A stretch of DNA of 63,456 nt, filler included, from Bonamia ostreae (GCA_040357525.1; 39 parts of 39 records of this genome joined end to end with filler, not necessarily neighbours in it); one strand, 5' to 3'. Counted from the first letter of the whole stretch, positions 2,547 to 58,525 are shown. The notes: generated by a model from the letters alone, not told the origin. Translations and numbers: made by a program.

Positions 2547-3061
2547 ATGCAAAACAGCAATCCGCTCATCAAAAATCTCTTAAACGCGCCCAAACGCCAA
2601 TACAAACATATTCCGCAAATCGAAACGAAGCGAGAACCGATCGACGCTCTCGAAATTTTCGGTTCGAAAATTGACTAAAGACCTTCTAAGACACATCGCC
2701 GACCCGGAACATCCGCTCACGCTCGAACAACTCGGCGTCGCTTCGTTGGACGGCGTTGTCGTGGATGACGAGGCTTCCAGAGTAGAAGTAAAGTTCACGC
2801 CGACGATCCCGCACTGCAGCATGGCGACTTTGATCGGATTGTGCATCCGAGTAAAGTTGCTGAGGTGTTTGCCGAAGAGGTTTAAGGTTCGGTTGGCTGT
2901 CACGCCCGGATCGCATAGTTCCGAAACTAGTCGTTTTATTGATTGACAGAAAAGTGAACAAACAGTTGAACGACAAAGAAAGAGTTGCGGCCGCGTTGGA
3001 GAATGGGAGGATCGTTACAGTTGTAAACAGGTGTCTTGAGAACTCGGATCCTTATTTTTAA
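2547..3061 (+). CDS. CIAO2B: Cytosolic Fe-S assembly component CIAO2B/MIP18/FAM96B (Cia2), 3 exons
   Basis: Removing introns 2662-2680 (19 nt) and 2933-2954 (22 nt) gives MQNSNP...[21 protein letters not shown]...[22 protein letters not shown]...[18 protein letters not shown], the family signature. Confidence 0.93.
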
Positions 3062-3093
3062 TAAATTTTTGAGATCTTTTTTTTGTAATTTTT

Positions 3094-3185
3094 TTTTGGA
3101 AAATTTAATGGACAAAAAAAGCGATTTTGGTTTTGGAAAATTTAATGGACAAAAAAAGCGATTTTGGTTTTGGAAAATTTAATGG
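3094..3185. repeat. ~37-bp AT-rich tandem repeat at the contig end
   Basis: TTTTGGAAAATTTAATGGACAAAAAAAGCGATTTTGG repeated about 2.5 times. Confidence 0.85.
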
Positions 3186-4984
3186 NNNNNNNNNNNNNNN
3201 NNNNNNNNNNNNNNNNNNNNNNNNNNNNNTTAATTAATTAANNNNNNNNNNNNNNNNNNNNNNNNNNNNNNNNNNNNNNNNNNNNGTCACTTTCAGAAAC
3301 GATAAAAATCAGATGGCAATGTATAACATTCACACTATCTGCTTTTCTTATTTGATAGATATTTAGAATAAGAAATAAAAAAAACATAAGTTTGTTGAAG
3401 TTCTTGGTGGTAACGTGGTGAGAAATCATCCTATGGTTGTCATGGCAACAACTTCCCAACACACTTACGTTATTTGCATGTGGATAATCATATTCCCTAC
3501 ATTCCCTACATTTTACGTTATTGTTGCAACCATATTGATATAAAGTGTCCAGTGTCTTGACCCAGTAATCTCGTTGTCTACGAAAGGGTGTATTTAATGG
3601 GTTGTTGGTACGATAGTGAATGTTTAAATTTGTGATATTTCGCCTACAGCTGGTGACTTGGCAATATCAGTTAGCTATTCTCGAATTCTCGTGCATTCTC
3701 ATTTGATTAAAATGAATGGAAAATGATAGAAATTTTAAAACTATACCTTCAAATTGAACAAGCAGTCTATATTTTTTCCATCCAGCTGTACTGAAAAAGT
3801 GAAGATAGCGACCAGTATTCTAGACAACATGTATCAAATTGAGCAATTAGATAATTTGTTCATACTCCATATGTCATATGGTAATATACTGATTGGCTCG
3901 ATTTCTTTATCAGTTCAACTGGGTTTCAGTGATTCAGATAGACGGGGCCTAATCTTAGTTCATATTTATATATATAACAAATAATGTTGAGTTTATGAAA
4001 TGGAGTGGCGTGATATTTCGTCTGATTGCAATCATTATTGAATGAAAAGCGAATATATCAATCTCATAAATCCTATAAGCAATTTAATAAAGATAACCCT
4101 AACCCTGACACATAGATTTTCAAATTTGCTAAAACATAAGTACAAACAAAACATTTTACATAAGAAAAATATGTACAAAAATCTAACACTGACTCTCCAA
4201 GCGTATATACACCGTCTTCATCGTTTTAAACTTGCTAAGCATTGTTTTCTAGGGAGTGAATATGGATACGTCCTATTCGCCCAATGGGTTAATCCACAAA
4301 GCGCGAAGAAACGTGATTAGTTTCCAAGGATGATCAGTTAGTGTAATCAGCGCAAAAATCAAATTCTACCTGGTGGAATTCCTTATTAAGCACCATGAAA
4401 ACATCTCATATGGCCAAAGAGACAAAAGAAAGTATACTGTATTGAAATCGGTTGNNNNNNNNNNGGTTGTGATTTGACAGGTCATACGATTTCTGTTAGT
4501 ATTCTTTGTTTACTGTGTGTTTAAAATCATCATAACTTATAAAAAAAATATAAAGCAAATGCCTGTGGGTATCACCCCTTTTCGCCGGCTTTGACATTTT
4601 TTGACCCCCTTCTCTAACCCATTGTGAACATATGCTGTAAAAATACTGCACACGAATTGAATCATAATTGAACCTTTCCAATTACATTGCGTTTTACAGG
4701 CTGCCACCATAATAAACATTTTTATTGACCTTATCAATGAAAGGGAAGTTTTCACCCTACTCGAAAACAAGGTTGAGAGAGATGAAATGATTTTTTCAAC
4801 AATTTCACCTCAATCTAATTAAAATNNNNNNNNNNNNNNNNNNNNNNNNNNNNNNNNNNNNNNNNNNNNTTAATTAATTAANNNNNNNNNNNNNNNNNNN
4901 NNNNNNNNNNNNNNNNNNNNNNNNNCATTTGCTTCATTAATTAAAATCGGCAAAACAAATTTATCATCTTAAAAATTACCGAAA

Positions 4985-6294
4985 ATGCTTTTCAAAATTA
5001 CTATTTTATTATTTCAAATCAAATCGATTCACTCTTTGTGGAACTATTGCAGCCACGTGAAGATAGATGCCTCGAGTGTTTTTATGTACGGAGACACAGA
5101 GATTGCTTGGACTGGAAAGAACATTACTGTTTTTGCCGACGTAAAGGTTTCAATATTTTATGCAAAACTTATCGACAGGACAGTTGTGGAGACCTGTTTC
5201 ACACAACGAAAAACCTCACTGATATGATAGATTTAAGAGTATCATTAAGAATGAAAAATAACGACACCGTCAAACCTTTGGAAATAGTCCAGAACAACCT
5301 CGGCACAATGAAATTTGTCTTCAATGTTGAGAAAATAGGTGTTTGGGAACTTGAAACCCTCTCCGAAACCTCCAAAATATTAAAACACCCTTTCTTGTCG
5401 GACAAGGTATACGTCTTTTCTTCTGAAACAAGCGGGGACAAATCGGTGTTTAGTCATTACGGCCACAAACTGAATTCGAAAGCGATTAAACTAAGCCCGT
5501 CTTCGAGTTTTGGCGGCACTACATTAAATCTGACCCTAAGAGACGAGTTTGGCAACAGAATATTCGAGGATAGATGCAATAAACTGAGAATGGAGCCAAA
5601 CGATTTTATTAATTTCAAGACAAATTCCATCAAGAGCGGGAACCATTCCTTGGTCTGCGGGATCTTTTTATCGGGGACAGTTTCCAAAAAACACAAGATA
5701 CAACTGTACACCACTGACATAGAGGGCAACATTTTGCGGTTCTCCCCGTTCTTTGTTTACATCGAAGCGGGCGATTTGCACCCCGAAAAGGTTTCTATGG
5801 ATTTGGAAGAACACGAAATGGCTTACGTCGATATCTACTTAGATCCCAGAGACCGTTACGGAAACAAGTACAAGAAACTGATGTCCAAAAAGATCTCCAT
5901 CGAGGAAACCTGCGACGCTTCAAACTTTACAGAGAAAACCCCCATTTTGAATTTTCGCGAAGTCGGCGGATACAAAGTTCGCCATTTTCTGCAATTCCCA
6001 GCAATATCTTGTCGCGTTAGATTGATCAACCTAATTATCGCGGATAAAGAAAACGGAGAAGACATTGTATCGAAAAGATGGCAACTCGGAAAAGAAAATT
6101 TTGCTAAAGCATACTTTTACAGAACATTTATCGAAGCCTCCCTCAAAGAGGAGCTTTTGTTAGTTCGAAAGTCTATTGTGTTGGAAACGGAAATTGATGA
6201 AGAGACATTGGTTGAATTTTTTATTTTTAAGAAAGATGAGCTGTCGCATCGGAAAAGCATAGCTGAGAGTTTGGGAGTCGATTGGAGCAACTGA
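4985..6294 (+). CDS. Secreted/surface protein with filamin-type Ig-like repeats (GEX2-like architecture)
   Basis: Signal-peptide-like MLFKITILLFQIKSIHS. Intron 5147-5178 (32 nt) joins this exon to the 418-aa ORF. Repeats ITVFADVKDSCGD, LNLTLRDEFGN, IQLYTTDIEGN and IYLDPRDRYGN match the filamin-repeat D..GN turn. Confidence 0.6.
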
Positions 6295-8242
6295 AGAATT
6301 TACTTTACATATTTTTTAATTTGCAAACGGAGCTATAATTTTTTCAATGACATGTTCATAATCTCATATTGAGGCACAATGCATTTTTTCTTCTTGATTG
6401 AGAAAACTTTATCTTCTATAAACTATTTCCATTTTTTATGCCATAATCCGTTTTTAAAATATAATNNNNNNNNNNNNNNNNNNNNNNNNNNNNNNNNNNN
6501 NNNNNNNNNTTAATTAATTAANNNNNNNNNNNNNNNNNNNNNNNNNNNNNNNNNNNNNNNNNNNNGAGGTATGCATTTCAGGCATTTATCCCTCTTACTT
6601 GATGATCAATTATTAAGTAATCCATTTCCTATAAAGTTTAATATTTTCTCATGGTTAATGTTAAGGCTGTTCAATAAACAAGATGCTTGATTATTCTAAC
6701 GGATACGCAGTGTAAAAAACTTAAGTGATATTTGATGTTTTATCTGTGCAATTCGTTAAAACTACAGACAACAATCCAAGTTAAGAAGATTGAAAGATAA
6801 TCTTTAATACCAAGTCTTAGTGATAGCCGGTAATATATGATCCACGGCAGCTGGCTTATTTGACCATCATTCAAATATTTATCAAACGGGTATCGGGAAA
6901 AGAAAATACATGTACATTATTATCTACAATCTGACAAAACCAGACCGCCATGAGTGTTCATTGATACCTTAAAGTTCTAATGTTTTTGTTTACATCTCAT
7001 CTCCGTCGGATGTCTTCATTGATAATTCATTGTAGATGTGTAGAGTGGCCTGATACTTTTACAATCCTTATTTGCTAACTTACATTTGTAAGCATCTGTT
7101 GACACATACACAAACGGGCACTGTGAACATGGTACTGGCGTGGTGTAATGCTCTTGTATCAATGCTCCCAATTCGTTAAACTCAGCACAGGCACCACCTA
7201 TTGAAAAGAGAATAAGATGTTAGCTTGTAATGTAACAACCATAGTCCTCACTTTAACACGTTATTTAAGGGCACATCATTCCAAATAGAAGTTTGTAAAA
7301 CTATTTGTAAATGCTTTAATGTTTTTAAAAAAAACTAATATTTACCATACAATGTTCCAATGAAACCGTGTTTCTAGCATTATTCACAAACTTTATCTAA
7401 AATTCAATGCCATAGTTTGTGGTGTACAGTGTTAGCGCTATATCATTGTTACTCCATCTGTCAATCTAGTTTCTTTACATCAGTAATACTGAAGCTCATG
7501 TGCTATTTTTTTCACATACTTAATTAATAACTTGTACAACACCCTCGTGCATTTTTTTTAATTGAATAACCTCGCATACTTTGATAAATTTTGAATTCAT
7601 AACTTTTAGTGATATTTTAGTTATTTGCATTCTCTGTGCAGCGATCCGTGACTAATAACCGTATCAAATAATTTACACCATTACTCACTATTATAGAGGA
7701 GTTGTGACTACATTTTTTATACACGACTTTGGACCATTAACCATACGATGTACTTTGCACCATGTTTCCACTCCTACAATGAACCTACACCGCGATTTTT
7801 CGTACTCGACTTTGAACCATTAACCGTCCGAAGTATTTTCACCCTTCATTACTTTCATATAGGATTCGTGCAACGACTTTTCTTACATGACTTTGTACCA
7901 AATAGTTGTACAATATATTTTGCACGTGCGACTACCTCCAAACAGACAGGTGTCCTGGGAGTTCACGCACGCGAGGAGAAACCAAAGCGGAACGCAAGTT
8001 CAATGGGAACATTATCATCATAGGTTGTGGTACTAGTAGAAACAGGTATCTACATATGTATGTAATCAGCAGCAAGGTGCGAACCTAAATAACATCTTGC
8101 AAANNNNNNNNNNNNNNNNNNNNNNNNNNNNNNNNNNNNNNNNNNNNTTAATTAATTAANNNNNNNNNNNNNNNNNNNNNNNNNNNNNNNNNNNNNNNNN
8201 NNNTAATAAACAGATCGAATTGATGACATAAATTTATTTACA

Positions 8243-8648
8243 TCAAATCCATCCAATCACAAAAACAGCCATCGAAAACGAAAAAATTTCCAATTTTGAA
8301 TTGTTACTGTCTAATTTTTGTTCTTCGTTTTTACCATTCCCATAGTACTCATCGTTGCCATTTTTCAAACCAGATTTTTCATTGAAATATTTGTTTACGT
8401 CGTTTATCAATTTTGTCAAACTGATTTTATTATGCTCTTCTGGCACCATTCTTCTTGCCACATTTAGTGCCATGAGATAATAATCTCTTTCGTTTTTTGT
8501 CGATTTTATAATCTCTTGGTACATTCCATCAAAATTGCCATCTAAAAAGATTTTCTTTAAAGTTACCAATAATCTCCTTCCGAATATCTAGTCCATATTG
8601 GGACACAGCGAAGACAAGGAAAAAATGAATGTAAATGATGGCGATCAT
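8243..8648 (-). CDS. Small protist surface protein: signal peptide plus C-terminal hydrophobic tail (GPI-anchor candidate)
   Basis: MIAIIYIHFFLVFAVS leader. The 25-nt intron 8542-8566 restores the frame. Ends ...DSNNSKLEIFSFSMAVFVIGWI. Confidence 0.6.
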
Positions 8649-9270: not shown

Positions 9271-9741
9271 ATGGCGCTCGACGGGATATATGTTTTTGAC
9301 GAAAAAGAGAAAAAATACAAAAAAGATTTACGTCCAAACACAAATGTTCATTAAAATTTACAATTCCCAAAAATTCAAAGGACGTCACAAAAACACAAAA
9401 AATGAAATTTGTTCAATTTGGACTAAAACGAAATTTGCTGAAAGGAATTTATTCCGCGGAATATTTGTTCCCTTCTCCGATCCAACAAGAGGCGATTCCA
9501 GCCATTTTATCCAAACAAAACATTTTGGCGCGCGCCAAAAACGGAACCGGCAAAACAGCCGCTTACGCCATTCCCGCAATACATTTAGTCGATCCTCATA
9601 ACTCAGCTCCCCAAGTTCTGGTCATCGTTCCTTCCAGAGAACTCGCTTTACAAACGAGTTCCGTCTTTGAAAAATTGGCCAATTTTTGCCAAATCAACGT
9701 TAAAATTTTTGCAAATTAAGTCCGTTTTACAGTTTCAAGTT
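9271..9741 (+). CDS. DDX6: DEAD-box RNA helicase DDX6/Dhh1, 3' partial
   Basis: KDLRPNTN/DVT (35-nt intron 9346-9380), Q motif PSPIQQEAIP, ARAKNGTGKT (DDX6-type motif I) and motif Ia VPSRELALQTS. Confidence 0.92.
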
Positions 9742-16440: not shown

Positions 16441-17624
16441 CCTGGAAAAATTCATTTATCAGACCGCCTTCATCAACGCCGATTTCTTTGCAAAAAACGA
16501 TTTTTAGCGATTTTTTTAATTGTTTTGTTTTGTAGTTCTCCAACTTTTAAATCAAAATTTAACCATTTTGCCATAATTTACTTTCAAAAATTAACCATTT
16601 TACCAAAATTTAATTCAAAAATAACAACAAAAAACAAATCTCAAAGTATCCGCGATAACATGTTCTCTGCAAACAACAAAATAGCAATATCGTGAAAGAT
16701 GCGAATCGAAGTCAAATTGGTTTCTTTCTTCAATATCAAAATCGATTTCATTTATCCCATTATTCTCGATCGAGTTCGCAACAGAACTCACCGAATTTGC
16801 AACAATCGAAGAATTTGCAGAGACCTCAAATTCCTCTGGTTCGAGCAGTTCTCTCTCCGTCGGCGGAAAGGCGATCGGAACTTCGTAATTCATCGATTCG
16901 TAGTCGTTTATCAATCTCAATGGCACTCTCTGGTTGTCTTCGCGCTCACGGTCAATTCCATAATTGTTTCCGTCACCGTTGCCACCAACAGCATTTCCGT
17001 TGCTGTTATCGTTCTCGTTTAGAACGATATTATTAAAATTGCTGTCGAAATTATATTGACGCTGCAACGAGAACTCGGAAAGATCGGACAAAATGGCTTC
17101 GTTTTGCTCTTTGGTGTTTTCAGTCGCGAGCAAAAACTGTTTTGTGTCGGTGTTCAATATCCATTTGAAATGGGGTCGAATCGAAGTTTTGATTTTGCTT
17201 TGGAGGTCGATATTGTCGGGATTGAGATGGAATTTTAGAGATTCGCACAGAGAATCGTTTTTGAAAATGGAAGGATTTTCGGGTTTGGATCTGTGCAGCA
17301 AATTGAGGATTTGGATCGGCGAGTTGATTTTTTGGATGTCAAAGTTGTGGTTCATTTGAATACAAGTTGACTATTTTTTGAAAATTTTGCGGTGAAACAA
17401 ATTTTAGTTAAAAAAACTGAAATATGTTGCTGTACAGAGTGTACAATCCTTTCAAACGATTTTTGTTTATAAACGGAAAAATTTTTTGCAAATTCTTCCA
17501 AAGACGATTTTTTGAGACTCGCGAAGAAGTCGAAAAAATCGTTTATTATTAAATGGCTTTCTTGTTCTCCACATAATTTTTCAAATGATGGCGATTCCAA
17601 TATTAAGATCAGAATTCTTTTCAC
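16441..17624 (-). CDS. HECT E3 ubiquitin ligase (HERC3-6/UBE3A-like), internal fragment
   Basis: KWILNTDTKQFLL...FVVCREHVIADTL, then a downstream exon (~16441-16542) LENYKTKQLKKSLKIVFCKEIGVDEGGLINEFFQ, which is the start of a HECT domain. Confidence 0.85.
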
Positions 17625-18833: not shown

Positions 18834-19289
18834 TTAATAGTATTTAAGTTTATTTTCCTCGACATCTCTAGAAAAACACATTCCCTTTTTCGATATAATG
18901 TGCACGATGTAGATAATTATTGTGTTCGGAAACACGTCAAGTACCTTAAAATGAATATCTGGAAAACTGTTGAAAGTCGATCAAAGAAAAAGTCTGTCAT
19001 CATCATTAACGAGATGATTTCTGCCGGAACATCGATTCCGACCATTTTTCCGTAAAATGGCAGGTTGAGAACAGATCCAGCAGGAATTGGAGGCGTTGTT
19101 ACGGAGAAAAACGTCGAAACCAAAACCAACAGGATTTTACTGGAAACAGGAAATCGTTGCTTATAGATGTGTGCGGTAAAGGAGATCACCATTACGTTGT
19201 AAGCAGTTGTTCCATTTATTTGGAGCATGAAAGCTAGTGGCACAAGAGCATTTGATAAAGTGTCTGAAACACCCATTTTTTTAGATGCG
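18834..19289 (-). CDS. SLC1/DAACS (dicarboxylate/amino acid:cation symporter) family protein, C-terminal TM7-HP2-TM8
   Basis: VPLAFMLQINGTTAY aligns to PLGATINMDGTALY. HP2 reads TTPPIPAG. Removing the 23-nt intron 18945-18967 gives TM8 DFFFDRLSTVLDVFPN. Stop at 18834-18836. Confidence 0.8.
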
Positions 19290-19879: not shown

Positions 19880-20867
19880 ATGGCCATCCGCAAACTCTAC
19901 GAACCAGAAAAAAACGACAATTACACAGACAAAACATTTATCGATAAAGTCGATAAAATGGCCGCCATGAAAACTCCCGGACATTTCAGTTACATTATAT
20001 TGGCCTACAAATTTGACAAAGTAGTGCAACAAATATCTTCTGTTTTCGCCACCATTTTATTGTTCGATTTTGTTTCGAAAAATAGAAAAATTTTGGCTTT
20101 TGGACATTACAAAATTCTAGCGACCGAATTCGCCGCAATGGCTTCATTTTATTTCTTCTTTGTCCATTTTTGGAACATTCCAAAATTGCAAACATGTTTC
20201 ATTAAAGTCGGCAATTTTTAAGCTCATTTTGTTGAAATGTTTGTTTTTCATCTTTTGTTAGCCATTTTTACGCCGATTCTCAAAAATCTGACTTTTTATT
20301 ATTCCGATTCCGCCATTTGGTCTTTAGTCTCATTTTGTTTTGTCACAAATGTCGTTTTTCATGAATACGCCAAATTTGCCAGAATTGATGGTCCCGAAGG
20401 ACTATTGTCTGTTCCTCTTACTTTATCTGAAGCCACAAGTCTCAATGCAGCCATTTCCGGGTGTGTTATATTGTCTTCAAGATTGGACAGCAACTCGGAT
20501 GTCATTTTCTTCTTGACTTTGGCTTTCCAGATTTTCGTTTTCAGTCCAATTTTCTTCCGAATTTTGCGAGTTTTTAAAATATCGAAATTTTAAATAACGC
20601 AAAAGTGGTCAATATTAAATTTTGCAACACAAAAGAAAAAATCGAAAACGACGGAACTGGTTGTAACGGCTGTAATATCATTGGCGCTAATTAAATTTTT
20701 GCATTTGCGGAAATTGGAGAAAATTTTATTTTTTTACATTTCAATTCTCTTTGTTGTTTTTGTCATTTGCCCAATAATATTCTTCCATTTAAACAAACAA
20801 AAAGAGTTTTTTTTAGTTATTTGACAGAGTTTTTGAAGATGACAGATTTCCCGTTTTATTAAATTGA
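19880..20867 (+). CDS. PIGC: GPI-GlcNAc transferase subunit PIG-C/GPI2, 4 exons
   Basis: Motifs RKLYE...DNYTDKTF, FTPILKNLT..YSDSAIW, FHEY, SLNAAISGCVILSSRL and FVICP. Introns at 20196-20222, 20570-20605 (or 20635) and 20806-20827. Confidence 0.88.
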
Positions 20868-22925: not shown

Positions 22926-23258
22926 GTTTTTATCGAGTAGAGATCTCTTGTTGGAACTCTTTTTGTTCTCCTTATTCCGCGTTCTTGGCTTCATAACAAC
23001 AATTTTCTTCGATTTATCCAAATCTGTAAATTTCGGTCTCTCTTCCAAATCAATTTCTGGTCTTTGAATCTTTGAATTTTAAAAAATTACTTTTCCAAAA
23101 TTTTGGAATCTTTGCCTCGCCATTTTTGTATCGATAAAGCTAGTTTTTAATATATCAATATCAAAATCCGGATTCGGTTTTAGATTTGTTAATGGCTTTG
23201 AACGATTTAACTGCAAATGTGAATCATTGAAGTTTTCGTCGTCTTCTAGAACATCCAT
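22926..23258 (-). CDS. Protist hypothetical protein, 3' partial
   Basis: MDVLEDDENF... stays open to the contig end once the stop-containing 21-nt intron 23070-23090 is removed. Confidence 0.55.
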
Positions 23259-23322: not shown

Positions 23323-24459
23323 ATGAGCTCACTTTTTGATAACATAATAAACAGAGTCAGCAAAAACAACAAAAAACACAGAACACAAAAAGTTCTCGAC
23401 AAAAGAACTTTTTGCCGCGGATGCGGCTTCCACGTTCTCAAAAAAACTTACAAAATCCACAAAAAACTTTTCCGAAATTCCGACGGAATATGGCTCCCCC
23501 ACAATATGCAACCCTCTAGACAAAAAATCAACAAACGTTTTCACAAAAAAATTACAAAGCTTTAAATCTCTTAAAGTCCGAAGAAATGGACAAAATTAAA
23601 AAAATGGGCAAAATTAAAAATGCCGAAAAACGACAAAAATCGAAGAAAATTTACAAAAATTTTTGTGCGTTCTGTGGAAATTGCTGCATCGACGGAGAAT
23701 GCAAATTCGACGACAAAAATTTTTTCGAAGAACAGATTTTGCATTTTTGCTGTCTTTTCGCACAAAATTCAAACTTTCTCGACCAAATTATTCTTCACAA
23801 CAAATGCGAATATTGTCAAAACGAGCACTTTCACGTTTTTTTAGAAAAAAACCGTTTTAGTTTTGCCTCGAAAAATCGAAGGAGAAATCGAACTGCGCCA
23901 ATTGCGCTTCCAAGTTTCACAGCGTCAAAGATTGCAAAGAGCAAAAAATCGAAACATTTTACGCAAAGTCCGAAATGAGGCTTCCAAAAAAATTGGCTTT
24001 TTCGGAAGCGAAAATCAGTTTGATTGATTTGCCGATCGACCAAAAAAGTCGTCCAGTTCCTTCTTTCCAAAACAACTTTTTGGAGTCGATTAACGATTTT
24101 GTTCTGAAAAGTTCGTTCGAATCGCGAACGCAAAAACGCAAAAACACAGCTTTGGAAACTTCGCATAAACTAAAAAGACCGAAAAATTTTTATTTCAATC
24201 GGTTTGGAATGCCGCTTATCAGTGCTCGAGATTGTTCTGTTTTGGAAGACGAAGTTGTGAAAGAAAGTGGAAAGACATTAAAGATTGCGCATCGATCGAA
24301 AGATGGCGGTGCGGTGGGTTTGAAGGACAGTTTTAAATTGGATTTCGAAGAATCAAAGTTCATGGAAGGACCCGAGAATCCGCTTGCGAGGAAAAAGGAA
24401 GATATTTTGTTTAAAGAGAAAAATGGGAAAATCGATATTACGACAACCGGCCAGCCCGA
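23323..24459 (+). CDS. Cys/His-rich zinc-knuckle protein (possibly Air1/2-ZCCHC7-like), 3' partial
   Basis: Three track ORFs are joined by introns 23537-23559 (23 nt) and 23835-23860 (26 nt). The spliced product has an exact CCHC knuckle CANCASKFHSVKDC plus other CxxC clusters. Confidence 0.6.
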
Positions 24460-42955: not shown

Positions 42956-43942
42956 ATGCTAAAATCTTTCTCGATTGGCGTCAAAGATACTAATTCGCGC
43001 ATCGCGCGATCCATCAACATAATTAAACGAAATTTAGATAAATATAGGTCACTTTAATGTCCGAAGCTTTAACATATTTTTATTTTATAATGAAGGTCTG
43101 ACGAACTGGCTGTTTGTTTTAATGGCGGCAAAGATTCCACCGTGTTGATGTTTCTTCTGTTCCTCTGCTACAAATCGAAGGGCGCCAATCTGCTGCCGAA
43201 GGAATTGAGAGTGGTGTGCGTGACAGAAGAAAGGGAATTTGAGGATTTGAGGATTTTTAGGGAAAGAGTGTCCAAAATCCGCAAGTTCGCGATCACATAT
43301 TTGCCACCGCCCATGAAAAAAAGTCTGAACGATTTGGTGCGCTCAGACAAAATTAGGGCGGTTTTTAGCGGACAAAGAGTTGGCGATCCAGGCGCCAAAA
43401 ACATCGCCGAAGAAACTCCTTCTGACAACGGGTACGAACCCTTCCTAAGAATCAACCCCATCTTGCGATGGTCCCACGGCGACGTCTGGGATTTCATCAA
43501 AGCAAATAGAGTGCCGTATTGCGAGCTCTACAGAAAGGGCTACACGAGTCTCGGGATCCCCCCGTTTTCTCTGAAAAATCCATTTCTCTCGCAAGGGCCG
43601 AACCGCTTTTATCCGGCTTGGGATCTGCGCTTGTGGGAAACAGAGAGAATGGGAAGAGGAGTTCCTCTGCGCGATTTTAATGGTCTTTTTTGAGTCCGAA
43701 CGCACTCAAAGACAATCCATTATTCCCTAAAATTTTTAGGCGCTGGAAACCCGAGAGTGTGTCTTGTGGTGAGCAAAGATGCACTGCCGATTTCCAAAAC
43801 ACAACTAGAGTTTGCGAGGCAGAATTTCAGACATCTAATCGCGGCTAATTTAAAAAGCGGTCTTTTGCCCGATATAGTTATTCTGGACAGAAAAGACTTT
43901 AACGAAGCGAAGAAGGATTTCGATCTCGCCTATTTTCTTTGA
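42956..43942 (+). CDS. FLAD1: FAD synthetase (PAPS-reductase family, Fad1/FLAD1)
   Basis: The 48-nt intron 43048-43095 gives ...ELAVCFNGGKDSTVL. Later motifs GQRVGDP, RINPILRWSHGDVWDF, YCELYRKGYTSLG, NPFL and ERMGR. A probable 57-nt intron 43683-43739 extends the frame to 43942; otherwise it stops at 43693. Confidence 0.88.
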
Positions 43943-44261: not shown

Positions 44262-45376
44262 ACATTTTCATACGGCTTCAGCGACTCCCTGTAAAGTCTT
44301 TTCTGACTGGTTGAGACATCAATTTGGTTATTAAAATGAGGAAAAGACGATTTTTCGATATCTTTAGAATAAATGTGGTTGATCTGGACAGCAAGAACAA
44401 TGTCTGGCGACGGATCGCAATTAAAAACAAAGCAACATTTTTCTTCTTCTTTCTATTAAAATTTTACACATTTGTCATATTTTGCAAATTTTTTAGATCA
44501 AAATTTGCCAAAACGTTAAAAGCAAATTCTGCAAATTCCGAAATTCTTTTATTCGCGGAAATGTCATAAAGAGCTGCTCTGCAGAAAAACGGCTCGATCA
44601 AATTTCCGTAATGCATGGAAAATTTTAATGGATAAAAAGCAAATTGAGTCGTTGGTTCCAACTCCCAAATTTCTGGTCTTTCATGTTCAGTCTCAATCTT
44701 TTTTTCAAATTTATTAAAATTGCATTTTCGCAAACTTTTTCATAGGACGAATTGTAACATTGCAAAATGGCTGATTCTTTGACGTTTAGCGAGTTTTGGA
44801 TGTTTCCCAATGGCAGAATTTCAAAATATTGATTTTTGACCAATTGATCAAAATTAATGTTTAAATTTTCTTCGGACACAAAACTGGTCGAAAACGATTC
44901 TGAATCCTTAAAATGACCAAATTTAAACTAGGCTCATGCTAACTGAAATCTCGTTACTGTAATCTTCGTCCGATCTTTCAGTTTTGCTCAATTTCATCGT
45001 TTTTTCTATTTTTTGATAAATTATTTGAAAGTTTTGGCAATTTGAATTTCATCGTTTTTTGATGAAATTTTGATTTTATTGCGAGAAATTTTAATTTTGT
45101 AAAAATTTTAATGCGAAGATAATTTTATTGATTAAAAAAATTTAATGGCGGAAAACCGGATATTGCAAAAGTTTTGAAATTTCCGCTTTCGTTTTGTTTT
45201 GAGCTGATTTGCGAATATTTGAAAGGATGATTCATTTGAACGCTGACAAGCGGTTCAGAAAAAGACTCAATCGCCTTTTTTGCAAGAAAATCGCTCTTTT
45301 CTTTGCTGATTTTATCGTCCAATCTACTATTCAAAGTAGAGTGCTCTACTTTCACTAATTCGTCAAAATTGAACAT
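44262..45376 (-). CDS. DOCK-C/D (Zir/Zizimin) family GEF, N-terminal exons
   Basis: LIEPFFCRAALYDISANKRISEFAEFAFN and CFVFNCDPSPDIVLAVQINHI match the DOCK6-11 IEP.F..LALYD....KISE.F.FDLN and IFS...PS.D.FLV motifs. Introns include 44907-44928 (22 nt). Confidence 0.8.
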
Positions 45377-46135: not shown

Positions 46136-46666
46136 TTAATGCCGTTCGAAACAAATATCAATGACCTCGTTCTCGTCGAGCATTTTGCCGCCGTACCAAA
46201 ACTCGAACATTCCGTTTTTGCATTTTACGCGGAAACTAAAATTGCCTTCGTTTTCACAATCGAATCGATACACGTTTTGCTCGCTAAACTTCGCGAAGAA
46301 CTTTTTGAATTTGAAGAGATCGTCGAGAACACCAGTGTCGCATTGTTTTTCGACCTGGTCCGATTCTTTCATATTTCAAATCAAACCTACCGCAGTGCAT
46401 TCGGGCTCTCCATTAAACTTAACAATTTTGCCGGTAATGTCGTCCTCGACAAAGTAAACCGGTTCCGGTTTATCAAAACATTCGCCGAACAACCAACCGA
46501 ATTTTTTGTCGTTGTGGAAATTGAGGACTTTGTTCTTGTTTTTGCATTCGATGACAGTTCGTTTTAAGTCCTTTTCGTATCGGTCGTTGAGGTATCTCGG
46601 GAATGGGCAGACTTGCTTGCGAGATGTCAAGATGACATTCAGAAGTAAAATTAGAAAGAAGCTCAT
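46136..46666 (-). CDS. Secreted Cys-rich protein (~169 aa) with two 4-Cys modules
   Basis: Leader MSFFLILLLNVILT. The in-frame TGA is removed by the 21-nt intron 46366-46386. Eight Cys fall in two groups. Confidence 0.6.
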
Positions 46667-46902: not shown

Positions 46903-47151
46903 ATGGCTTGTGAAACGATTCAGAAAAAACGCGTCATCCCAATTTCTTTATCAATTGTCTGCTTCGTCTTGTTGGTCTCCACTTTGGTCGCTTTTAAAAA
47001 CGAAAATGTCTCCGAAGAAGGTTTTCTACAAATAAAATAGTTTTGGTCTTCCAAAAAACTTTCATTGTGTTTCTCCTTTTGATGCTCATACGAATTTTCT
47101 TCTACTTAGACAAAGTGAATCGGGCCTTTAAAATATTCTCTCATTTCAAAT
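46903..47151 (+). CDS. Multi-pass membrane protein N-terminus, 3' partial
   Basis: MACETIQKKRVIPISLSIVCFVLLVSTLVAF... is joined to ORF 47043 by the 20-nt intron 47021-47040. Confidence 0.55.
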
Positions 47152-51805: not shown

Positions 51806-52379
51806 CTGAAACACAATTAAATGACACAGATCTGCAATCAATGAATTATAATATTATATGAATAGACAACTCAAAACAAGAAATTGCAAGCAAATGTCAC
51901 AGTGCAATACTGGATGTATATGAGATGTTTCTCACCTTTTGTTTGCATTCATTAACTCCACATCGTGCAGCATTGACTGATACTGAAATCGTTCCTCTTT
52001 TCCCATGCACTGGTGGTCCATATTGTCCATTCTAAATTGCAAAAGATGCCCATGATCAAAAAGCTCATGGGACTCACCATTCATTTACAAAGATAAAGGT
52101 CCTAAATATTTTAACGACCTGACTTTGNNNNNNNNNNNNNNNNNNNNNNNNNNNNNNNNNNNNNNNNNNNNTTAATTAATTAANNNNNNNNNNNNNNNNN
52201 NNNNNNNNNNNNNNNNNNNNNNNNNNNCATTGAGATAACGTCGGGCCAACACAGTCATGCTATCTGGGATGTTAGTAGTCCTAGTGCAGTCTGATTTTTT
52301 GTCAGTTGTATAGATGTTGAAACATTCTGTATTGTTCCGAATAGTACATGTACTATAAACAGTGCCTAGCGGTTAAGGT

Positions 52380-53749
52380 TTAGAGTTTTCATCATAGAGT
52401 TGCAAGGCTTTGGTGGTAGGTCTCATGGGTGGATTGCTGTCTTGGGTAAGTATACAGTGTTGACGAAGTCCTAGAATATTGCGAGTAGATCCATAGTCAA
52501 GTTGGCAGATCACGTTCTTTGAGACGTATGATCAACTGTCATGTGTACTTTTGTAAACCAGTGTTTTCCATGCATTACATGCACAGTAAAACAAGAATTT
52601 GTAGATTCACAGTCACTAGAATAATCAATTTCATTTACTCCGTGCACTCGCTTCTTTACACTTTGACACGCTAAAGAGAAATGATTTTTTTTCTTTTGCA
52701 CAAGATATACGTCTGGCCTCAGCACGTCAATGTTTCGTCCTTTGTTGTGTTTTCCACCGCAGTATTTGCAATTGAATTCCTTGCGTTCTTGGTTGTCTTC
52801 TAAGTGAACTTCTTGGTTTTCACATCCTTGGAATATTTCTTAGGTCCCTTTAATGCAAAATTGACTTGTGGTGCAGCAGTAGCTCCAGTTTCACTCGGTC
52901 ATTGCAGTTTCGTAAGGTAATTGGAGGTTCTCTCATTGGTCCTGCACGTATCAGTAGCACTGTCTGGAGTGAACTTCGACTTTCGTAATAGTCTTCCGCG
53001 AACTCCCTGATCATTCGTGCTTAGCACAATTCTATTACGCAACATTTGGTAAGCGAAAGCGTTTTTGCTAGTTCTATGTGTCCACATTCTCTGTGTTTAC
53101 TGGTCATCTGATCTGCAGTGTTCATATATGACGTTTGCTTTGGCATAAAATGCTGATCAAGGGCTTCCAGAATCTTATCAATGTTCCTTCTGTCTTCTTC
53201 CGAGAACATGAGATTTTCATGTAATTGAAAAGTTTTTACCCATCACTGTGAGAAATGTGGCAACACGAATAGGTGCATCTTTTTTTATAAGTTCTGTTGC
53301 GATTTCATAGTTCGAACATTGCGCTTTAAAGAATTTTCAATTACCTTTTATATCTCCCTTACCGGCATATGTGCAGGAACAAGTAATTCTTTCGATACCA
53401 TACTTTCAAGTAGATCTGAACCGGGCGCAGCGGCAAACACGTGTTCAGTGAGGCTGCATTAGCATGTCAAGAATCAGCGGAAATAAATCGAAATAGCTAG
53501 CTAGAATATTTGGCGTTGATTCGCGTACACAAACGATCAATCCTGACTTCTTGCTTACGCTGGAAGGGCCTAGCTCAAAGTTGCTGAAGTCAGCTTGAGA
53601 AACCTGCGGACTTCTGACAACATGTTTTGGTTCAAGATTTTATTAACTACACAATAAACGATGATGTCACATACACATTACACAATAAGGGTAAGAATAA
53701 TGAACGTAGCAAGCAATATCATAAAACCGTGGGGGAATCTGGATCAAGC
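52380..53749 (-). mobile_element. Gypsy LTR retrotransposon relic: 5' LTR end, PBS, gag and protease start (host)
   Basis: LTR-terminal CA followed by PBS-like TGTTGTCAGAAG (53622-53611). Gag fragments NYEIATEL..RVATFLTVMG, MLRNRIVL..VRGRLLR, CKYCGGKH and KKNHFSLAC, and protease-like CQLDYGS, all frameshifted. Confidence 0.8.
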
Positions 53750-53941
53750 NNNNNNNNNNNNNNNNNNNNNNNNNNNNNNNNNNNNNNNNNNNNTTAATTA
53801 ATTAANNNNNNNNNNNNNNNNNNNNNNNNNNNNNNNNNNNNNNNNNNNNCAGCAAAATAAGAATATGTAACAAAAAAATTAGAATATGTAACAACAAAAA
53901 TAGAATTTGTAACAACAAAAATAGAATTTGTAACAACAAAG

Positions 53942-55140
53942 AGATAAAGAAAACGCGTTAAAGATGTATATGAAAAACGGTAACATTGAAAAAACAATGT
54001 CACTGTTAAATAACAGCAAAAAAGTGGAAGATGTGATAAAATTCGAAAGAATTTTGGAGAAAAATAAGGAATTCGAAAAATTGGCGTTGTTCCAATTAAA
54101 AAGTGGAAAGCTTGAAAAAGCTTTCGACAATTTTTTATTGTCAAAAAATCTTAACAAAGCTTTTGAAATTGTTTTTCAATATTTTGAAAACAAAAACTTA
54201 AACATTTTCGGTGGCAATGCCACTTTCAAGATAACTTAAATAAAACGAAAAATCTTTTTGAATAAAAAAATTTATTCGAAAACAAAAAATTTAAATAAAA
54301 AACCTTTTTGAATGGACAGATTGCCCATTGAAGCAGAAATGTAAAGTGGAGAGATTAAATCTTGTTAACCAAAATTCGTTAACAGAAATTTTATTTCAAC
54401 AAAAATAGATTAAAGAGACAAAAACGGAAAATATTGAAAAATTGGTCAGAGAAACCAAAAAAGAATATTATTTCCAGAGGAAAAATATTGAAACTAAAAG
54501 AAAACGTTACAAAGATTTGATTAAAAGATTGAGATCGATTCGATTTTTAAGACAAAACAATTTTTTAGGAAATATTAGTGAAGTAGATAACAAATCAGTT
54601 ATCTCGGGCAGCACCAATTTTACTTGGAACACCGTTTCCAGTTTCAGCATTGTTACCGAAACCGACTTTAACAATACTGGCGACGGTGTAGAAAGGAAAA
54701 AGAAGAAATTTGGTAAAAGTAGAAAAATCAAATTTGTTATTTTCCACATTTTAAATAGGGCGATCCTTCGACAGAACGATTTTTATTATCCGATTTGGCA
54801 AAATTAGTTCCAACAAAATCATTCAAAAAACAAATAAAAGATTTGGAAACGATTTTGTTGTCACTGAATTTGCGAAGCGAATTCGTTTTGCTGAAAAAGG
54901 ATTTTTCAGATTTTGTTAATCTCATCACCGAAGAAGAATCGAAGTCAATGGATTACTGCGAAAATTCTCTTTGTGGTAATAATGGTTAATTTTTAAAATT
55001 CACAAAAAGATTTTAAATGGCCAGAAGATTTGAAGAAGATAATAAAATCGAAGAATAAGAAAAGTGAAAATAAAAATTTGGTCATTGTTTTTAACCGGTT
55101 TGATCAAATTAACGAAGATATCATTGAAAAATGGGATTAA
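53942..55140 (+). CDS. ELP1: Elongator complex protein 1 (ELP1/IKAP), C-terminal exons
   Basis: KRLRSIR, a Ser-rich tract and basic ERKKKKFGKSRKIK. The 23-nt intron 54736-54758 then gives GDPSTERFLLSDL (Elp1 K.GSP.EE..L). The 25-nt intron 54985-55009 leads to the stop at 55138-55140. Confidence 0.75.
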
Positions 55141-57091: not shown

Positions 57092-57670
57092 CGATCACGC
57101 CGGGCTTCAAATTGGAAAAAGACGCAAAATCGCGCACTAAAAAAAGACGCATTTCGGAAACCAAACAACGTTCCCTGCGAACAAGGCGTTCTTCTGGGCG
57201 AGCGGAGGGAGTCCGAAAAATGAATGAAAACGACGAAAAGTCTAAAAATGGAGAAAAGCCACAAACTAAAAACCCGAAAAACGAAAATGGCGACGAAGAG
57301 GATTTTATTCTGGAATGCTGCGCGGGCAGCACTCGGATCGACATCAAGAACCAAAGTGAGGGCGATGTTAATGTTGAAGGGTGGAGTCTCAAAAGGGAAG
57401 AAAGCAATTTAGTCAAAAGTCTTAATTTCCCGTCTTCGCTAAAACAAAGTTTGATCGCAAAAACAATTTTCTTAACAAAATTATCAAATAGACGAATCCT
57501 TTTATGTCTATCCGACCAAAGCGCTTATGAAAGAAGATGTCAGCGAAGGAATCAAAAAGGTGTGGGCTCCGGCTGCATTCGATTCCGAGAAAGGCTGTGT
57601 CATTATTGTCAACGAAAATGGTTCGGAGATGTACAAAATGGAAATCAACGAGAAAGAAGATGTTTTCTAA
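57092..57670 (+). CDS. Lamin-tail-domain protein preceded by a basic NLS, 5' partial
   Basis: KKRR, then IDIKNQSEGDVNVEGWSLKR...LNFPSSLKQ. The 43-nt intron 57449-57491 restores NESFYVY...VW...VIIVNENGSEM, completing the LTD pattern. Ends EDVF, with no CaaX. Confidence 0.7.
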
Positions 57671-57915
57671 ATAATGTTTATAAGGAAAGTGAGACTTAGT
57701 AAATCCTGTAAGCTGACTATTTATAGTTTTAAACAATTTTTTGTTTTTATGGGAAATTTGTTTTAAAAATTGTTTTTACGGGCAATTCTTAAAATTGCCA
57801 GATTTTCGTTTTAATGGCCAAAATTCAAAATCGACTAAAAATCTGTTAATAATTTATTTGTTCGTTAGTCTAAGCTCCCCTTTTCATTTGTTGCGCTTCG
57901 AAATTTAAAAAATAT

Positions 57916-57960
57916 TCAAGTTGCCGGTTTTACGACCAGATTTCTAAACCGGCAACTTGA
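57916..57960. repeat. Perfect 15-bp inverted repeat with a 15-nt spacer
   Basis: TCAAGTTGCCGGTTT (57916-57930) and AAACCGGCAACTTGA (57946-57960). Confidence 0.9.
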
Positions 57961-58127
57961 TTTCTAAACTTCGCTGAGATGGACTGTCAGATTAGTGAGC
58001 TCTCGTCTCTTAATTAAAAAAATCAGGAATATTTCGGAACATTATTAAAAAGGGCCACGAACGAGAACCGAGTTAAAACGATAACAGCCAAATTGGCAAA
58101 TTTGTTAAAGATATTCCATATAATAAA

Positions 58128-58525
58128 ATGTATGACAATGATGTGCATCATAAACAATCGAGAAAAAGACATAAAAACCAACTCGAATGTCCAAATCCAA
58201 ACCTAATCGCCAATCTCAAACCTTTCACTTCTTGTCATTACATTGAGCAACGTCTTAACTCTGAAGGGAAAATGAACTTTGACTATGTTGAATTTTTTCA
58301 TTAAAGATGATGAGTGAACCACTCGGGCGACACATGCTTAAAAGCTTTTTCGCGTCTGTGTTTTCGATTTCGAAAGTGATCTTTATGTCAGACGTAAAAT
58401 TGTTCCAGCGAATAAGAGCAGAATCAGCACGCAGAAAAGTGGCGGAAATGATTTTGGAAAGGTTTGTTTTGCCGGCAGACGACAGGGAAATAGAAGAATC
58501 TGTTTTCGCGCATGACAAATTTTAT
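58128..58525 (+). CDS. RGS-homology domain protein, GRK-like N-terminus, 3' partial
   Basis: The 20-nt intron 58287-58306 gives YIEQRLNSEGKMNFDYMMSEPLGRHMLKSFF...VIFMSDVKLF...RRKVAEMILERFV, which fits RGS helices. The lead-in resembles GRK2 [26 protein letters not shown]. Confidence 0.65.

What the first reader, a model, noticed from the sequence alone, without database searches (positions are those of the whole stretch)
2662..58306. Ultra-short introns with a non-standard GTT...AAG splice signature in the protist contigs
Seen in sequence: 15 introns of 19-27 nt restore reading frames, several of them conserved motifs. They are 2662-2680, 2933-2954, 8542-8566, 18945-18967, 20196-20222, 20806-20827, 23070-23090, 23537-23559, 23835-23860, 44907-44928, 46366-46386, 47021-47040, 54736-54758, 54985-55009 and 58287-58306. 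Five more are 32-59 nt: 1978-2036, 5147-5178, 9346-9380, 43048-43095 and 57449-57491. Of these 20 hand-called introns, 17 begin GTT and none has GTRAGT. Twelve end AAG, six TAG and two CAG. The 3' regions are mostly A-rich, with no clear polypyrimidine tract. Established: typical major-spliceosome introns use GTRAGT and YAG, and AAG is disfavoured. Inference: a miniaturised splicing system with altered U1/U6 5'-site pairing and relaxed U2AF specificity, possibly length-guided. Tiny introns are known in ciliates, nucleomorphs, microsporidia and Mikrocytos, so the consensus rather than the size is the point to test for novelty.
Basis: partly seen in the sequence, partly recalled or inferred. Interest (0 to 1): 0.75.

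Follow-up and report, generated by a model that had tools for sequence, protein, structure and literature searches.

The report
Tiny GTT-start introns of Bonamia
Genes of the oyster parasite Bonamia ostreae are interrupted by real introns only about 19-27 bases long that mostly begin GTT rather than the usual GTA or GTG, a rare splice-signal variant whose reading machinery is still unknown.

Summary
The window is 39 short scaffolds: about 18 protist-like pieces, host-like pieces, and one piece with a bacterial-type domain hit. One exon is 99% identical to an NCBI protein named Bonamia ostreae.

All 20 called segments sit where stated and have the stated ends. Transcript-like contigs of run X3 lack exactly the three segments of the one scaffold I could lay, while a DNA run keeps them. 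Homologues or family profiles support four more. So 7 of 20 are independently supported and none is refuted. Ten rest on frame logic alone and three are doubtful. I add one missed intron at 20570.

GTT at the 5' end (17 of 20) exceeds the local background of 47.5% (p = 6e-4). AAG (12 of 20) does not exceed its 43.7% background (p = 0.11). Six unspliced GTT...AAG look-alikes lie in transcribed exons, so the ends and length alone do not define an intron.

These are ordinary-type spliceosomal introns near the lower size limit, with a GUU-biased, +5G-less donor. The closest precedent is Entamoeba's GUUUGU. The altered-U1 idea could not be tested, because the window holds no snRNA gene. Verdict: new variant of a known kind, moderate interest.

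The parts
23070..23090 (-). 21-nt intron, GTA...AAG, phase 0
   Evidence: Left out of X3 transcript-type contig (record 9, depth 3799) and kept in DNA run X1. No shift of the boundaries is possible. An in-frame stop lies inside it. X1 carries one extra A in it.
23537..23559 (+). 23-nt intron, GTT...AAG, phase 1
   Evidence: Left out of X3 contig (record 10, depth 172) and kept in X1 DNA.
23835..23860 (+). 26-nt intron, GTT...TAG, phase 0
   Evidence: Left out of the same X3 contig and kept in X1 DNA.
2662..2680 (+). 19-nt intron, GTT...AAG, in the MIP18/CIA2-family gene
   Evidence: Homologue P0113 residues 3-43 align to 2547-2660 and residues 44-125 to 2680-2925, so the residues are contiguous across a 19-nt gap. 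It is the only GT-AG pair that fits.
2933..2954 (+). 22-nt intron, GTT...AAG, same gene
   Evidence: Homologue P0003 residues 43-126 align to 2680-2931 and residues 127-158 to 2954-3049. The upstream CAG five bases before the end would break the frame.
9346..9380 (+). 35-nt intron, GTT...AAG, in the DDX6/Dhh1-type helicase gene
   Evidence: Against a profile of 94 homologues the spliced model scores 169.2 bits, exon 2 alone 155.7, unspliced 159.3 and an alternative 89-nt intron 156.3. Short collinear matches were also seen.
20196..20222 (+). 27-nt intron, GTT...AAG, in the PIG-C (GPI2) gene
   Evidence: The public B. ostreae model P0121 uses exactly this junction. The alternative 66-nt intron scores 141.9 against 163.8 bits. 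An in-frame stop lies inside it.
20570..20635 (+). Either 66 nt (20570-20635) or 36 nt (20570-20605). It removes the in-frame TAA at 20591.
   Evidence: Pfam GPI2 continues in the next ORF. Against a profile of 64 PIG-C homologues, removing 66 nt scores 174.9 bits, removing 36 nt 163.8, read-through 161.0, and the truncated public form 147.5.
18945..18967 (-). 23-nt candidate intron, GTT...AAG, in the SDF-family transporter gene
   Evidence: Frame logic gives 113 and 36 codons. The upstream exon aligns to ASCT2 up to residue 111 of 113. The downstream exon alone has no match.
43048..43095 (+). 48-nt candidate intron, GTC...AAG, in the FAD-synthase-like gene
   Evidence: It is the only GT-AG pair that joins the frames. 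The downstream exon aligns to human FAD synthase from its third residue. The upstream exon has no match.
58287..58306 (+). 20-nt candidate intron, GTT...AAG, just before the RGS domain
   Evidence: Unique GT-AG solution. The RGS profile starts at residue 2 of the downstream exon. Frame logic only.
1978..2036 (-). 59-nt candidate intron, GTT...TAG
   Evidence: Frame logic gives 73 and 82 codons. My GT-AG-only parser, which ignores +3 and -3, picked it as well.
8542..8566 (-). 25-nt candidate intron, GTA...TAG
   Evidence: Frame logic only, 31 and 98 codons.
44907..44928 (-). 22-nt candidate intron, GTT...AAG
   Evidence: Frame logic only, 40 and 93 codons.
46366..46386 (-). 21-nt candidate intron, GTT...AAG
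   Evidence: Frame logic gives 97 and 75 codons. The neutral parser picked it as well.
47021..47040 (+). 20-nt candidate intron, GTT...TAG
   Evidence: Frame logic only, 58 and 69 codons.
54736..54758 (+). 23-nt candidate intron, GTT...TAG
   Evidence: Frame logic only, 109 and 76 codons.
54985..55009 (+). 25-nt candidate intron, GTT...AAG
   Evidence: Frame logic only, 75 and 42 codons. Alternative donors lie at -12 and -9.
20806..20827 (+). Doubtful 22-nt intron, GTT...CAG
   Evidence: Only 12 codons lie downstream. The profile score with it is 163.8 and without it 161.5, which does not discriminate.
5147..5178 (+). Doubtful 32-nt intron, GTT...CAG
   Evidence: The downstream 449-codon frame is already open from 4945, so no intron is needed. 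No Pfam support on either side.
57449..57491 (+). Doubtful 43-nt intron, GTT...TAG
   Evidence: If unspliced, the upstream frame stays open for 83 more codons. The weak LTD match is in the upstream exon only. The neutral parser did pick it.
17371..17417 (-). Further unverified candidate, 47 nt, GTT...TAG
   Evidence: Joins open frames of 81 and 251 codons. No other evidence.
58990..59016 (+). Further unverified candidate, 27 nt, GTT...AAG
   Evidence: Joins open frames of 52 and 150 codons, with a stop inside. No other evidence.

Best explanation
The segments are genuine GT-AG spliceosomal introns of the haplosporidian oyster parasite Bonamia ostreae. They lie near the lower size limit, mostly 19-27 nt with a tail to about 60 nt.

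Shown: they are absent from transcripts and present in DNA. Removing them restores conserved proteins residue for residue. The donor is G-U followed by U in about 85%, with only a weak U at +4, no +5 G and no exon-side consensus. The acceptor is AG preceded by A, U or C in roughly the proportions of the local A/T-rich composition, and never by G. The body is A/U-rich and G-poor (interior G+C 6-27%), U-richer in the 5' half and A-richer in the 3' half.

Inferred mechanism: recognition across the intron (intron definition) by a major-type spliceosome that reads a very small signal, namely GU, an A/U-rich G-poor body of limited length, and the first usable AG. Such a donor could form only two standard pairs with a canonical U1 5' end (ACUUAC as printed in the Entamoeba preprint). 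I therefore think early U1 pairing contributes little, and that the +3/+4 U preference reflects the later contact with the U6 ACAGA box (U-A, U-G, U-A) or a changed U1. Which of these holds cannot be told from this window. Retained introns would mostly be caught by premature stops: 13 of 20 hold an in-frame stop, including all four whose length is a multiple of three.
For:: X3 contigs omit exactly 23070 (21 nt), 23537 (23 nt) and 23835 (26 nt), and DNA run X1 keeps them. X3 covers only the two genic stretches, at 22-fold different depth, as expected of RNA.

MIP18 homologues run without a gap across 2662-2680 and 2933-2954.

the DDX6 profile gains 13.5 bits when exon 1 is joined at 9345|9381.

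an NCBI protein named Bonamia ostreae, 99% identical, uses the 20196-20222 junction.

the PIG-C profile prefers removal of a GTT...AAG segment at 20570 over read-through.

+3 T in 17 of 20 against 47.5% background (p = 6e-4). +5 G in 3 of 20. Exon -1 G in 8 of 20. -3 is A 12, T 6, C 2, G 0.

the spliced pairs are the most A+T-rich of the 15 GT...AG pairs of 19-27 nt in transcribed sequence.

stop codons on retention.

passages of bioRxiv 10.1101/2022.06.08.495308 give the U1 and U6 pairing logic for a GUUU donor.
Against: Only 7 of the 20 called introns, plus my added one, have evidence beyond frame logic. Three are doubtful.

The sample is 20 hand-called introns from 27 kb. With a GTT background of 47.5%, the excess among the 8 supported ones is only p = 0.026.

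The tool's label for X3 is 'RNA?', a guess. Contigs cannot show retention or minor isoforms.

No branch-site motif is detectable: yUnAy with its A at -4 to -12 occurs in 9 of 20 against 7.4 in shuffles, p = 0.29.

No snRNA or splicing-factor gene is in the window, so every statement about U1, U6 or U2AF is inference.

The published genome paper calls B. ostreae introns 'canonical' (passages).
Confidence: 0.75

Rival explanations
1. There is no special signature. These are ordinary GT-AG introns, and the third and third-from-last letters simply mirror the A/T-rich, GTT- and AAG-rich composition of the genome, amplified by hand-picking.
For: GTT is 47.5% of GTN and AAG is 43.7% of NAG in the protist-like pieces, and 12 of 20 AAG gives p = 0.11. 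Positions +3 to +8 are all T-rich (17, 11, 8, 9, 15, 13 of 20), so +3 T may be part of a general U-rich stretch. Several introns have alternative in-frame GT-AG pairs.
Against: 17 of 20 GTT gives p = 6e-4. Among introns fixed by RNA or homology, where no choice was possible, 7 of 8 are GTT. A parser that knows only GT, AG, length and codon usage returned 7 GTT among 9 introns, although at least one of the nine, on the antisense of the FAD-synthase gene, is spurious. Purines at +3 (2 of 20) and G at +5 (3 of 20) are far below what a usual GTRAGT donor shows.
Confidence: 0.2
2. The U1 snRNA 5' end has co-evolved to pair with GUU(U), as in Entamoeba, and the acceptor-recognising U2AF is lost or relaxed.
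For: There is a precedent: Entamoeba's GUUUGU donor with a U1 that reads ACAAAC (abstract and passages). [quoted passage not shown] No pyrimidine tract fits into 19-27 nt.
Against: Nothing in the window bears on it. The same preprint reports that most lineages with atypical donors keep a canonical U1. The Bonamia donor has no extended consensus (+5 G in 3 of 20, +6 T in 9 of 20), so a complementary U1 would gain only one or two pairs. The -3 letters need no altered factor to be explained.
Confidence: 0.3
3. The segments are not spliced from RNA. They are DNA-level differences such as strain indels, assembly errors or programmed DNA elimination, or they are bypassed in translation by stop read-through or frameshifting.
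For: X3 is only guessed to be RNA. One 3n segment (20570-20605) could in principle be read through if TAA were a sense codon.
Against: Three exact GT...AG deletions occur in one 1.5-kb scaffold, in contigs that stop at gene ends and differ 22-fold in depth, while DNA contigs keep them. 16 of the 20 lengths are not multiples of three. Genes end at TAA (MIP18). Read-through scores below removal for PIG-C, 161.0 against 163.8 and 174.9 bits.
Confidence: 0.03

Closest known systems
Entamoeba GUUUGU introns with a co-evolved U1 snRNA (Roy and Bowser, bioRxiv 10.1101/2022.06.08.495308; abstract and passages read)
   Same: U at +3 and, more weakly, at +4 of the donor instead of the usual purines. A/U-rich introns. 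A parasite with a reduced genome. The donor can pair with the U6 ACAGA box.
   Different: In Entamoeba 88-90% of introns have the full GUUUGU and most also have U at +7, and a U1 reading ACAAAC was found. Here only GUU is enriched, +5 G occurs in 3 of 20, and U1 is unseen. Intron lengths were not compared. Entamoeba is an amoebozoan, Bonamia a rhizarian, so any likeness is convergent.
Mikrocytid introns of Mikrocytos mackini and Paramikrocytos canceri (PMC10245619; passages and section 7 read)
   Same: Same class, Ascetosporea. Parasites of marine invertebrates, A/T-rich genomes, introns at the lower extreme of length.
   Different: [quoted passage not shown] Here lengths spread over 19-59 nt with little sequence conservation, and transporter and lipid-anchor genes also carry them. 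The mikrocytid logo is a figure I could not see, so the donors cannot be compared.
Tiny introns of ciliates: about 25 nt in Paramecium and Nyctotherus (PMC5014332, abstract start in the search listing) and 15-16 nt in heterotrichs (cited in PMC10245619)
   Same: Similar modal length, A/T-rich, low-information signals. Premature stops on retention are a plausible check.
   Different: Here GTA is 2 of 20. The standard genetic code is used here, since genes end at TAA.
Chlorarachniophyte nucleomorph introns, 18-21 nt (cited in PMC10245619)
   Same: Very short GT-AG introns in a reduced genome, within the rhizarian host lineage.
   Different: The nucleomorph size window is narrow and the genome is a relic algal nucleus. 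I did not check its consensus.

Membership tests
Major (U2-type) GT-AG spliceosomal introns | Removed from the mRNA while present in genomic DNA | tested here: met
   3 of 3 introns on the one scaffold laid: omitted in X3 contigs, kept in X1 DNA. The other 17 were not testable because the single laying call was used.
Major (U2-type) GT-AG spliceosomal introns | GT at the 5' end and AG at the 3' end | tested here: met
   20 of 20. For the 3 RNA-defined and the homology-defined introns no other placement is possible.
Major (U2-type) GT-AG spliceosomal introns | Extended donor consensus GTRAGT complementary to the U1 5' end | tested here: not met
   0 of 20 GTRAGT. +3 purine in 2 of 20 and +5 G in 3 of 20. 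This departs from the usual consensus but not from the class, since other lineages also deviate.
Major (U2-type) GT-AG spliceosomal introns | Branch site (yUnAy) upstream of the acceptor | tested here: inconclusive
   9 of 20 have such a motif with its A at -4 to -12, against 7.4 expected in shuffles, p = 0.29.
Major (U2-type) GT-AG spliceosomal introns | U1, U2, U4, U5 and U6 snRNAs present in the genome | not testable with these tools
   No Rfam match in the window. No whole genome is held.
Minor (U12-type) introns | Rigid ATATCC- or GTATCC-type donor and a conserved branch site | tested here: not met
   None of the 20 donors begins GTATCC or AT. The defining motifs themselves are recalled, not taken from a call.
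Entamoeba-type transformed introns | Near-universal GUUUGU(U) donor | tested here: not met
   +3 T in 17, +4 T in 11, +5 G in 3 and +6 T in 9 of 20. Only two donors begin GTTTGA, and none has the full motif.
Entamoeba-type transformed introns | U1 snRNA 5' end complementary to the atypical donor | not testable with these tools
   No U1 gene is available.
Mikrocytid-type introns | Uniform length of 16-17 nt and a shared conserved sequence | tested here: not met
   Lengths are 19-59 nt and none is 16 or 17. There is no shared interior sequence beyond A/T-richness.
Bonamia ostreae (organism assignment) | Near-identity to a sequence named for the species | tested here: met
   The exon at 20222-20590 is 99% identical over 100% of its length to P0121, whose NCBI name carries [Bonamia ostreae] and whose longest contig is 1,535 nt, the length of this scaffold. 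Only one scaffold was tested this way. The other 17 protist-like pieces are grouped with it by tetranucleotide composition and CpG ratio.

The most novel reading that the evidence does not exclude
Bonamia, and perhaps haplosporidians generally, has rewritten the 5' splice-site code to GUU with no +5 G. It reads this either with a U1 snRNA whose 5' end has changed or without U1 pairing at all. That would be a second, independent case after Entamoeba of donor site and machinery changing together. It would also be a living intermediate between ordinary rhizarian introns and the fixed 16-nt introns of the related mikrocytids, where U1 was not identified.
Probability: 0.3. Interest if true: 0.7.

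Novelty: new variant of a known kind. Interest (0 to 1): 0.5.

Why it matters
Very short introns test how little information a spliceosome needs. Here GU, AG and length are demonstrably not enough, because six GTT...AAG look-alikes stay unspliced in transcribed exons. A/U-rich, G-poor composition or an unseen factor must therefore carry the decision.

A +3 U donor is otherwise documented only for Entamoeba, where it came with a changed U1. A second lineage would allow a test of whether donor and snRNA co-evolve as a rule.

There is also a practical side. Gene finders miss such introns. The public PIG-C model stops at a TAA inside a probable intron and loses the last quarter of the protein. Proteomes and gene-loss inferences for this notifiable oyster parasite are therefore likely to be biased.

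In the held library I found no description of intron length or consensus for Bonamia or other haplosporidians. The genome paper's main text says only 'canonical introns', and the transcriptome paper never uses the word intron.

Tried and rejected
Whole-genome work: no genome is held, so no genome-wide logo and no snRNA or splicing-factor search was possible.

Rfam at E up to 1 over the window gave only a sub-threshold CRISPR-repeat match. No tRNA was found.

Only one scaffold could then be laid, so 17 introns have no RNA test.

In one search, X5 matched only a 30-nt high-depth stretch. X6, a true RNA-Seq library, covered only 24220-24447, which holds no called intron. Neither bears on splicing.

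I draw nothing from them about habitat.

A naive scan for GT...AG pairs flanked by 40 or more open codons gave 351 candidates and was too noisy to use.

Its training set mixes sense and antisense frames, so I use it only as a weak control.

Pfam on 150 ORFs of 50-69 aa found nothing. The last 76 such ORFs were not scanned. Pfam on 25 flanking exons at E up to 1 gave no new junction support.

PDB searches with the SDF downstream exon and the FAD-synthase upstream exon found nothing.

The branch-site motif test was not significant.

The 'longer' homologue search for PIG-C returned only the Bonamia protein, so family members came from the representative search.

Earlier-findings look-ups returned nothing relevant.

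The idea that the organism is a ciliate with TAA as a sense codon was dropped. MIP18 ends at TAA, the named hit is Bonamia, and read-through scores lower.

The weak IFT140/172-type TPR match at 53934-54236 is not evidence of cilia.

Full report
WHAT THE WINDOW IS

The 63,456 bases are 39 scaffolds of 1,543 down to about 1,505 nt. They are joined by 44 N, the spacer TTAATTAATTAA and 44 N, and three scaffolds have an inner 10-N gap, which gives 42 pieces. No whole genome is held for the window.

Tetranucleotide composition separates 16 pieces with positive first-component scores, 15 of them with CpG observed/expected above 1.2. Two more are borderline (4926-6465 and 42482-44006); I counted them as protist because they carry called introns. 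The other pieces are lower in CpG (0.4-1.15) and, apart from 1-1543, have only sub-threshold Pfam matches.

All 20 called introns lie in 11 of these 18 protist-like pieces. Pfam on 150 ORFs of 70 aa or more gave eukaryotic families only on those pieces: MIP18/FeS_assembly_P, DEAD, SDF, GPI2 in three successive ORFs, PAPS_reduct, DPM3, a TPR of the IFT140/172 type, and RGS. It also gave a bacterial Sigma-70 region 4 match on the first piece.

The exon at 20222-20590 is 99% identical over its whole length to P0121. NCBI names that protein '[Bonamia ostreae]', and its longest contig is 1,535 nt, the length of this scaffold. B. ostreae is a haplosporidian in Rhizaria, Endomyxa, Ascetosporea.

CHECKING THE OBSERVATION

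Every one of the 20 segments starts GT and ends AG on the strand of its flanking open frames, 14 on + and 6 on -. None is GTRAGT. Fifteen are 19-27 nt long and five are 32-59 nt. Each joins open frames.

Direct evidence
- The run search found a small run, X3, labelled 'RNA?' by the tool, holding 45% of the sampled words of four scaffolds. It also found DNA runs holding up to 85%.
I therefore laid one scaffold, 22926-24459.
- X3 contigs leave out exactly 21 nt at 23070, 23 nt at 23537 and 26 nt at 23835. These are the three segments called there. The DNA run X1 keeps all three.
- X3 covers only the two genic stretches (22926-23197 and 23361-24291), at depths of 3799 and 172. This fits transcripts and not DNA.
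- The flanking letters allow no shift of any of the three boundaries. So GTA...AAG, GTT...AAG and GTT...TAG are real junctions.

Homology evidence
- MIP18 homologues align without a gap across both introns of that gene. P0113 residues 3-43 end at 2660 and residues 44-125 start at 2680. P0003 residues 43-126 end at 2931 and residues 127-158 start at 2954.
- For the DDX6/Dhh1-type helicase, a profile of 94 homologues scores the model spliced at 9345|9381 at 169.2 bits. Exon 2 alone scores 155.7, the unspliced frame 159.3 and an alternative 89-nt intron 156.3.
- For PIG-C, the public model P0121 already uses the 20196-20222 junction. A profile of 64 homologues rejects the alternative 66-nt version, 141.9 against 163.8 bits.
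- The same profile shows that the gene continues past the TAA at 20591. Removing 20570-20635 (66 nt) scores 174.9 bits, removing 20570-20605 (36 nt) 163.8, reading through 161.0, and stopping as the public model does 147.5.

Tally
- Seven of the 20 are independently supported and none is refuted.
- Ten rest on frame restoration only. For two of these the exon next to the junction aligns to a solved relative right up to the junction, but the other side is too short or too divergent to match (SDF; FAD synthase).
- Three are doubtful. 20806-20827 has 12 codons downstream and gives no score difference. 5147-5178 joins a frame that is already open upstream. 57449-57491 has an upstream frame that stays open for 83 codons if unspliced, and a weak LTD match on the upstream side only.

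IS THE SIGNATURE MORE THAN CHANCE?

In the 27,127 nt of protist-like pieces, both strands, GTT makes up 47.5% of GTN and AAG 43.7% of NAG.

- Donor: 17 of 20 GTT gives p = 6e-4. Among the eight introns fixed by RNA or homology, my added one included, 7 are GTT (p = 0.026).
- Acceptor: 12 of 20 AAG gives p = 0.11. The -3 letters (A 12, T 6, C 2, G 0) follow the composition of the intron interior (A 37%, T 43%, C 12%, G 7%), apart from the missing G.
- Other positions: purines are rare at +3 (2 of 20), G is rare at +5 (3 of 20), and the last exon base is G in only 8 of 20. T is also common at +4, +7 and +8 (11, 15 and 13 of 20).
- Shape: the 5' half is T-richer (48% T) and the 3' half A-richer (42% A). 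There is no pyrimidine tract.
- Branch site: a yUnAy motif with its A at -4 to -12 occurs in 9 of 20, against 7.4 in shuffles (p = 0.29).

On hand-picking: for most introns the donor is the only GT that can join the frames nearby, and the alternatives mainly use acceptors further downstream that would delete coding sequence.

WHAT DEFINES AN INTRON HERE?

The 1,203 nt covered by X3 contigs hold 15 GT...AG pairs of 19-27 nt on the transcribed strand. Three are spliced. Twelve are not, and six of those are GTT...AAG. The spliced three have the highest A+T content, 0.77-0.86 against 0.67 or less. Across all 20 introns the interior G+C is 6-27%.

So the ends plus length are not sufficient. An A/U-rich, G-poor body, or something not visible at this sample size, must contribute.

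If retained, 13 of the 20 introns bring a stop codon inside the intron and the other 7 shortly after it or further downstream. All four introns whose length is a multiple of three contain an in-frame stop.

MECHANISM

- Shown: splicing of GT-AG segments of 21-26 nt, and a donor biased to GUU without +5 G.
- Inferred: a major-type spliceosome working by intron definition on minimal signals.
- The Entamoeba preprint gives the usual U1 pairing sequence as ACUUAC. With it, a GUU donor forms only two standard pairs. The same preprint notes that a GUUU donor can pair with the U6 ACAGA box.
- I therefore favour weak or dispensable U1 pairing, with the U preference set at the U6 stage. A changed U1 is the alternative. 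I put about 0.3 on 'U1 changed or absent'.
- Nothing in the window can test this.

COMPARISON WITH WHAT IS KNOWN

- Entamoeba is the closest case for the donor. There 88-90% of introns have GUUUGU and U1 reads ACAAAC (abstract and passages). Bonamia shares +3 U and weakly +4 U, but not +5 G or +6 U.
[quoted passage not shown] Their logo is a figure I could not read.
- Ciliates (about 25 nt, PMC5014332 abstract start; 15-16 nt in heterotrichs) and the chlorarachniophyte nucleomorph (18-21 nt) match the size but not the donor, as far as I recall.
- The B. ostreae genome paper reports two introns per mRNA and calls them 'canonical', with no length or consensus in the main text (PMC11069148, passages).
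- A later paper says intron numbers and sizes are drastically reduced in Ascetosporea (PMC13746701, passages).
- The transcriptome paper does not mention introns (PMC9329632, term counts). PMC9998036 reports no obvious introns in P. canceri (passages).
- Searches found no description of a GTT donor outside Entamoeba in the held library. Supplements were closed.

VERDICT

The introns are real and the tiny size is real. The GTT bias is real but moderate on this sample. AAG is composition, not signal. The proposed altered U1 is untested. This is a new variant of a known kind, of moderate interest. The practical consequence is that public gene models of this parasite probably miss some tiny introns.

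Noticed in passing
whole window; e.g. 6566-8103, 9842-16285, 21291-22825, 26194-34248, 47357-53749: The window is 39 scaffolds of about 1.5 kb joined by N runs and a TTAATTAATTAA spacer. Tetranucleotide composition splits the 42 pieces. Sixteen are clearly protist-like, with CpG observed/expected above 1.2 on 15 of them. Two are borderline; I counted them as protist because they carry a called intron. The other 24 pieces have CpG ratios of 0.4-1.15 and negative PC1, and apart from 1-1543 showed only sub-threshold Pfam matches. They look like host (mollusc) DNA in the assembly.
   Followed up: partly
1-1543: An ORF at 395-616 matches Sigma-70 region 4 (E = 1e-5). The piece groups with the non-protist set, so it may be bacterial contamination.
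   Followed up: no
19880-20866: The public B. ostreae PIG-C model (P0121, 228 aa) ends at the TAA at 20591. A family profile shows the protein continuing for about 60-70 residues once a 36- or 66-nt GTT...AAG segment is removed. The public model is probably truncated by a missed tiny intron.
   Followed up: yes
1644-1780, 3094-3185, 19341-19505, 39630-39864, 42482-42580, 53854-53940, 58711-58826: Many protist-like scaffolds begin or end in A/T-rich minisatellites with periods of 21-49 nt, several of them 37 nt. This may explain why the assembly breaks at about 1.5 kb.
   Followed up: no
23080: The DNA contig of run X1 carries one extra A inside the 21-nt intron 23070-23090. This is a length polymorphism, 21 against 22 nt, in a confirmed intron.
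   Followed up: no
23362-23391: A 30-nt stretch is matched by many separate 31-nt contigs at depths of 45-245 in runs X1 and X5, far above the flanks. It is probably a short repeat or low-complexity word shared with other DNA in those samples.
   Followed up: no
23070-23090, 54985-55009, 9346-9380: Three introns in unrelated genes share the 3' motif AAAATTCA, and the first two are alike over most of their length. This could be chance in A/T-rich sequence, a branch-site region, or common descent. It was not tested.
   Followed up: no
22926-23197 versus 23361-24291: Two neighbouring genes on opposite strands differ 22-fold in X3 contig depth, 3799 against 172. The small gene on the minus strand may be very highly expressed, but contig depth is a poor measure of expression.
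   Followed up: no
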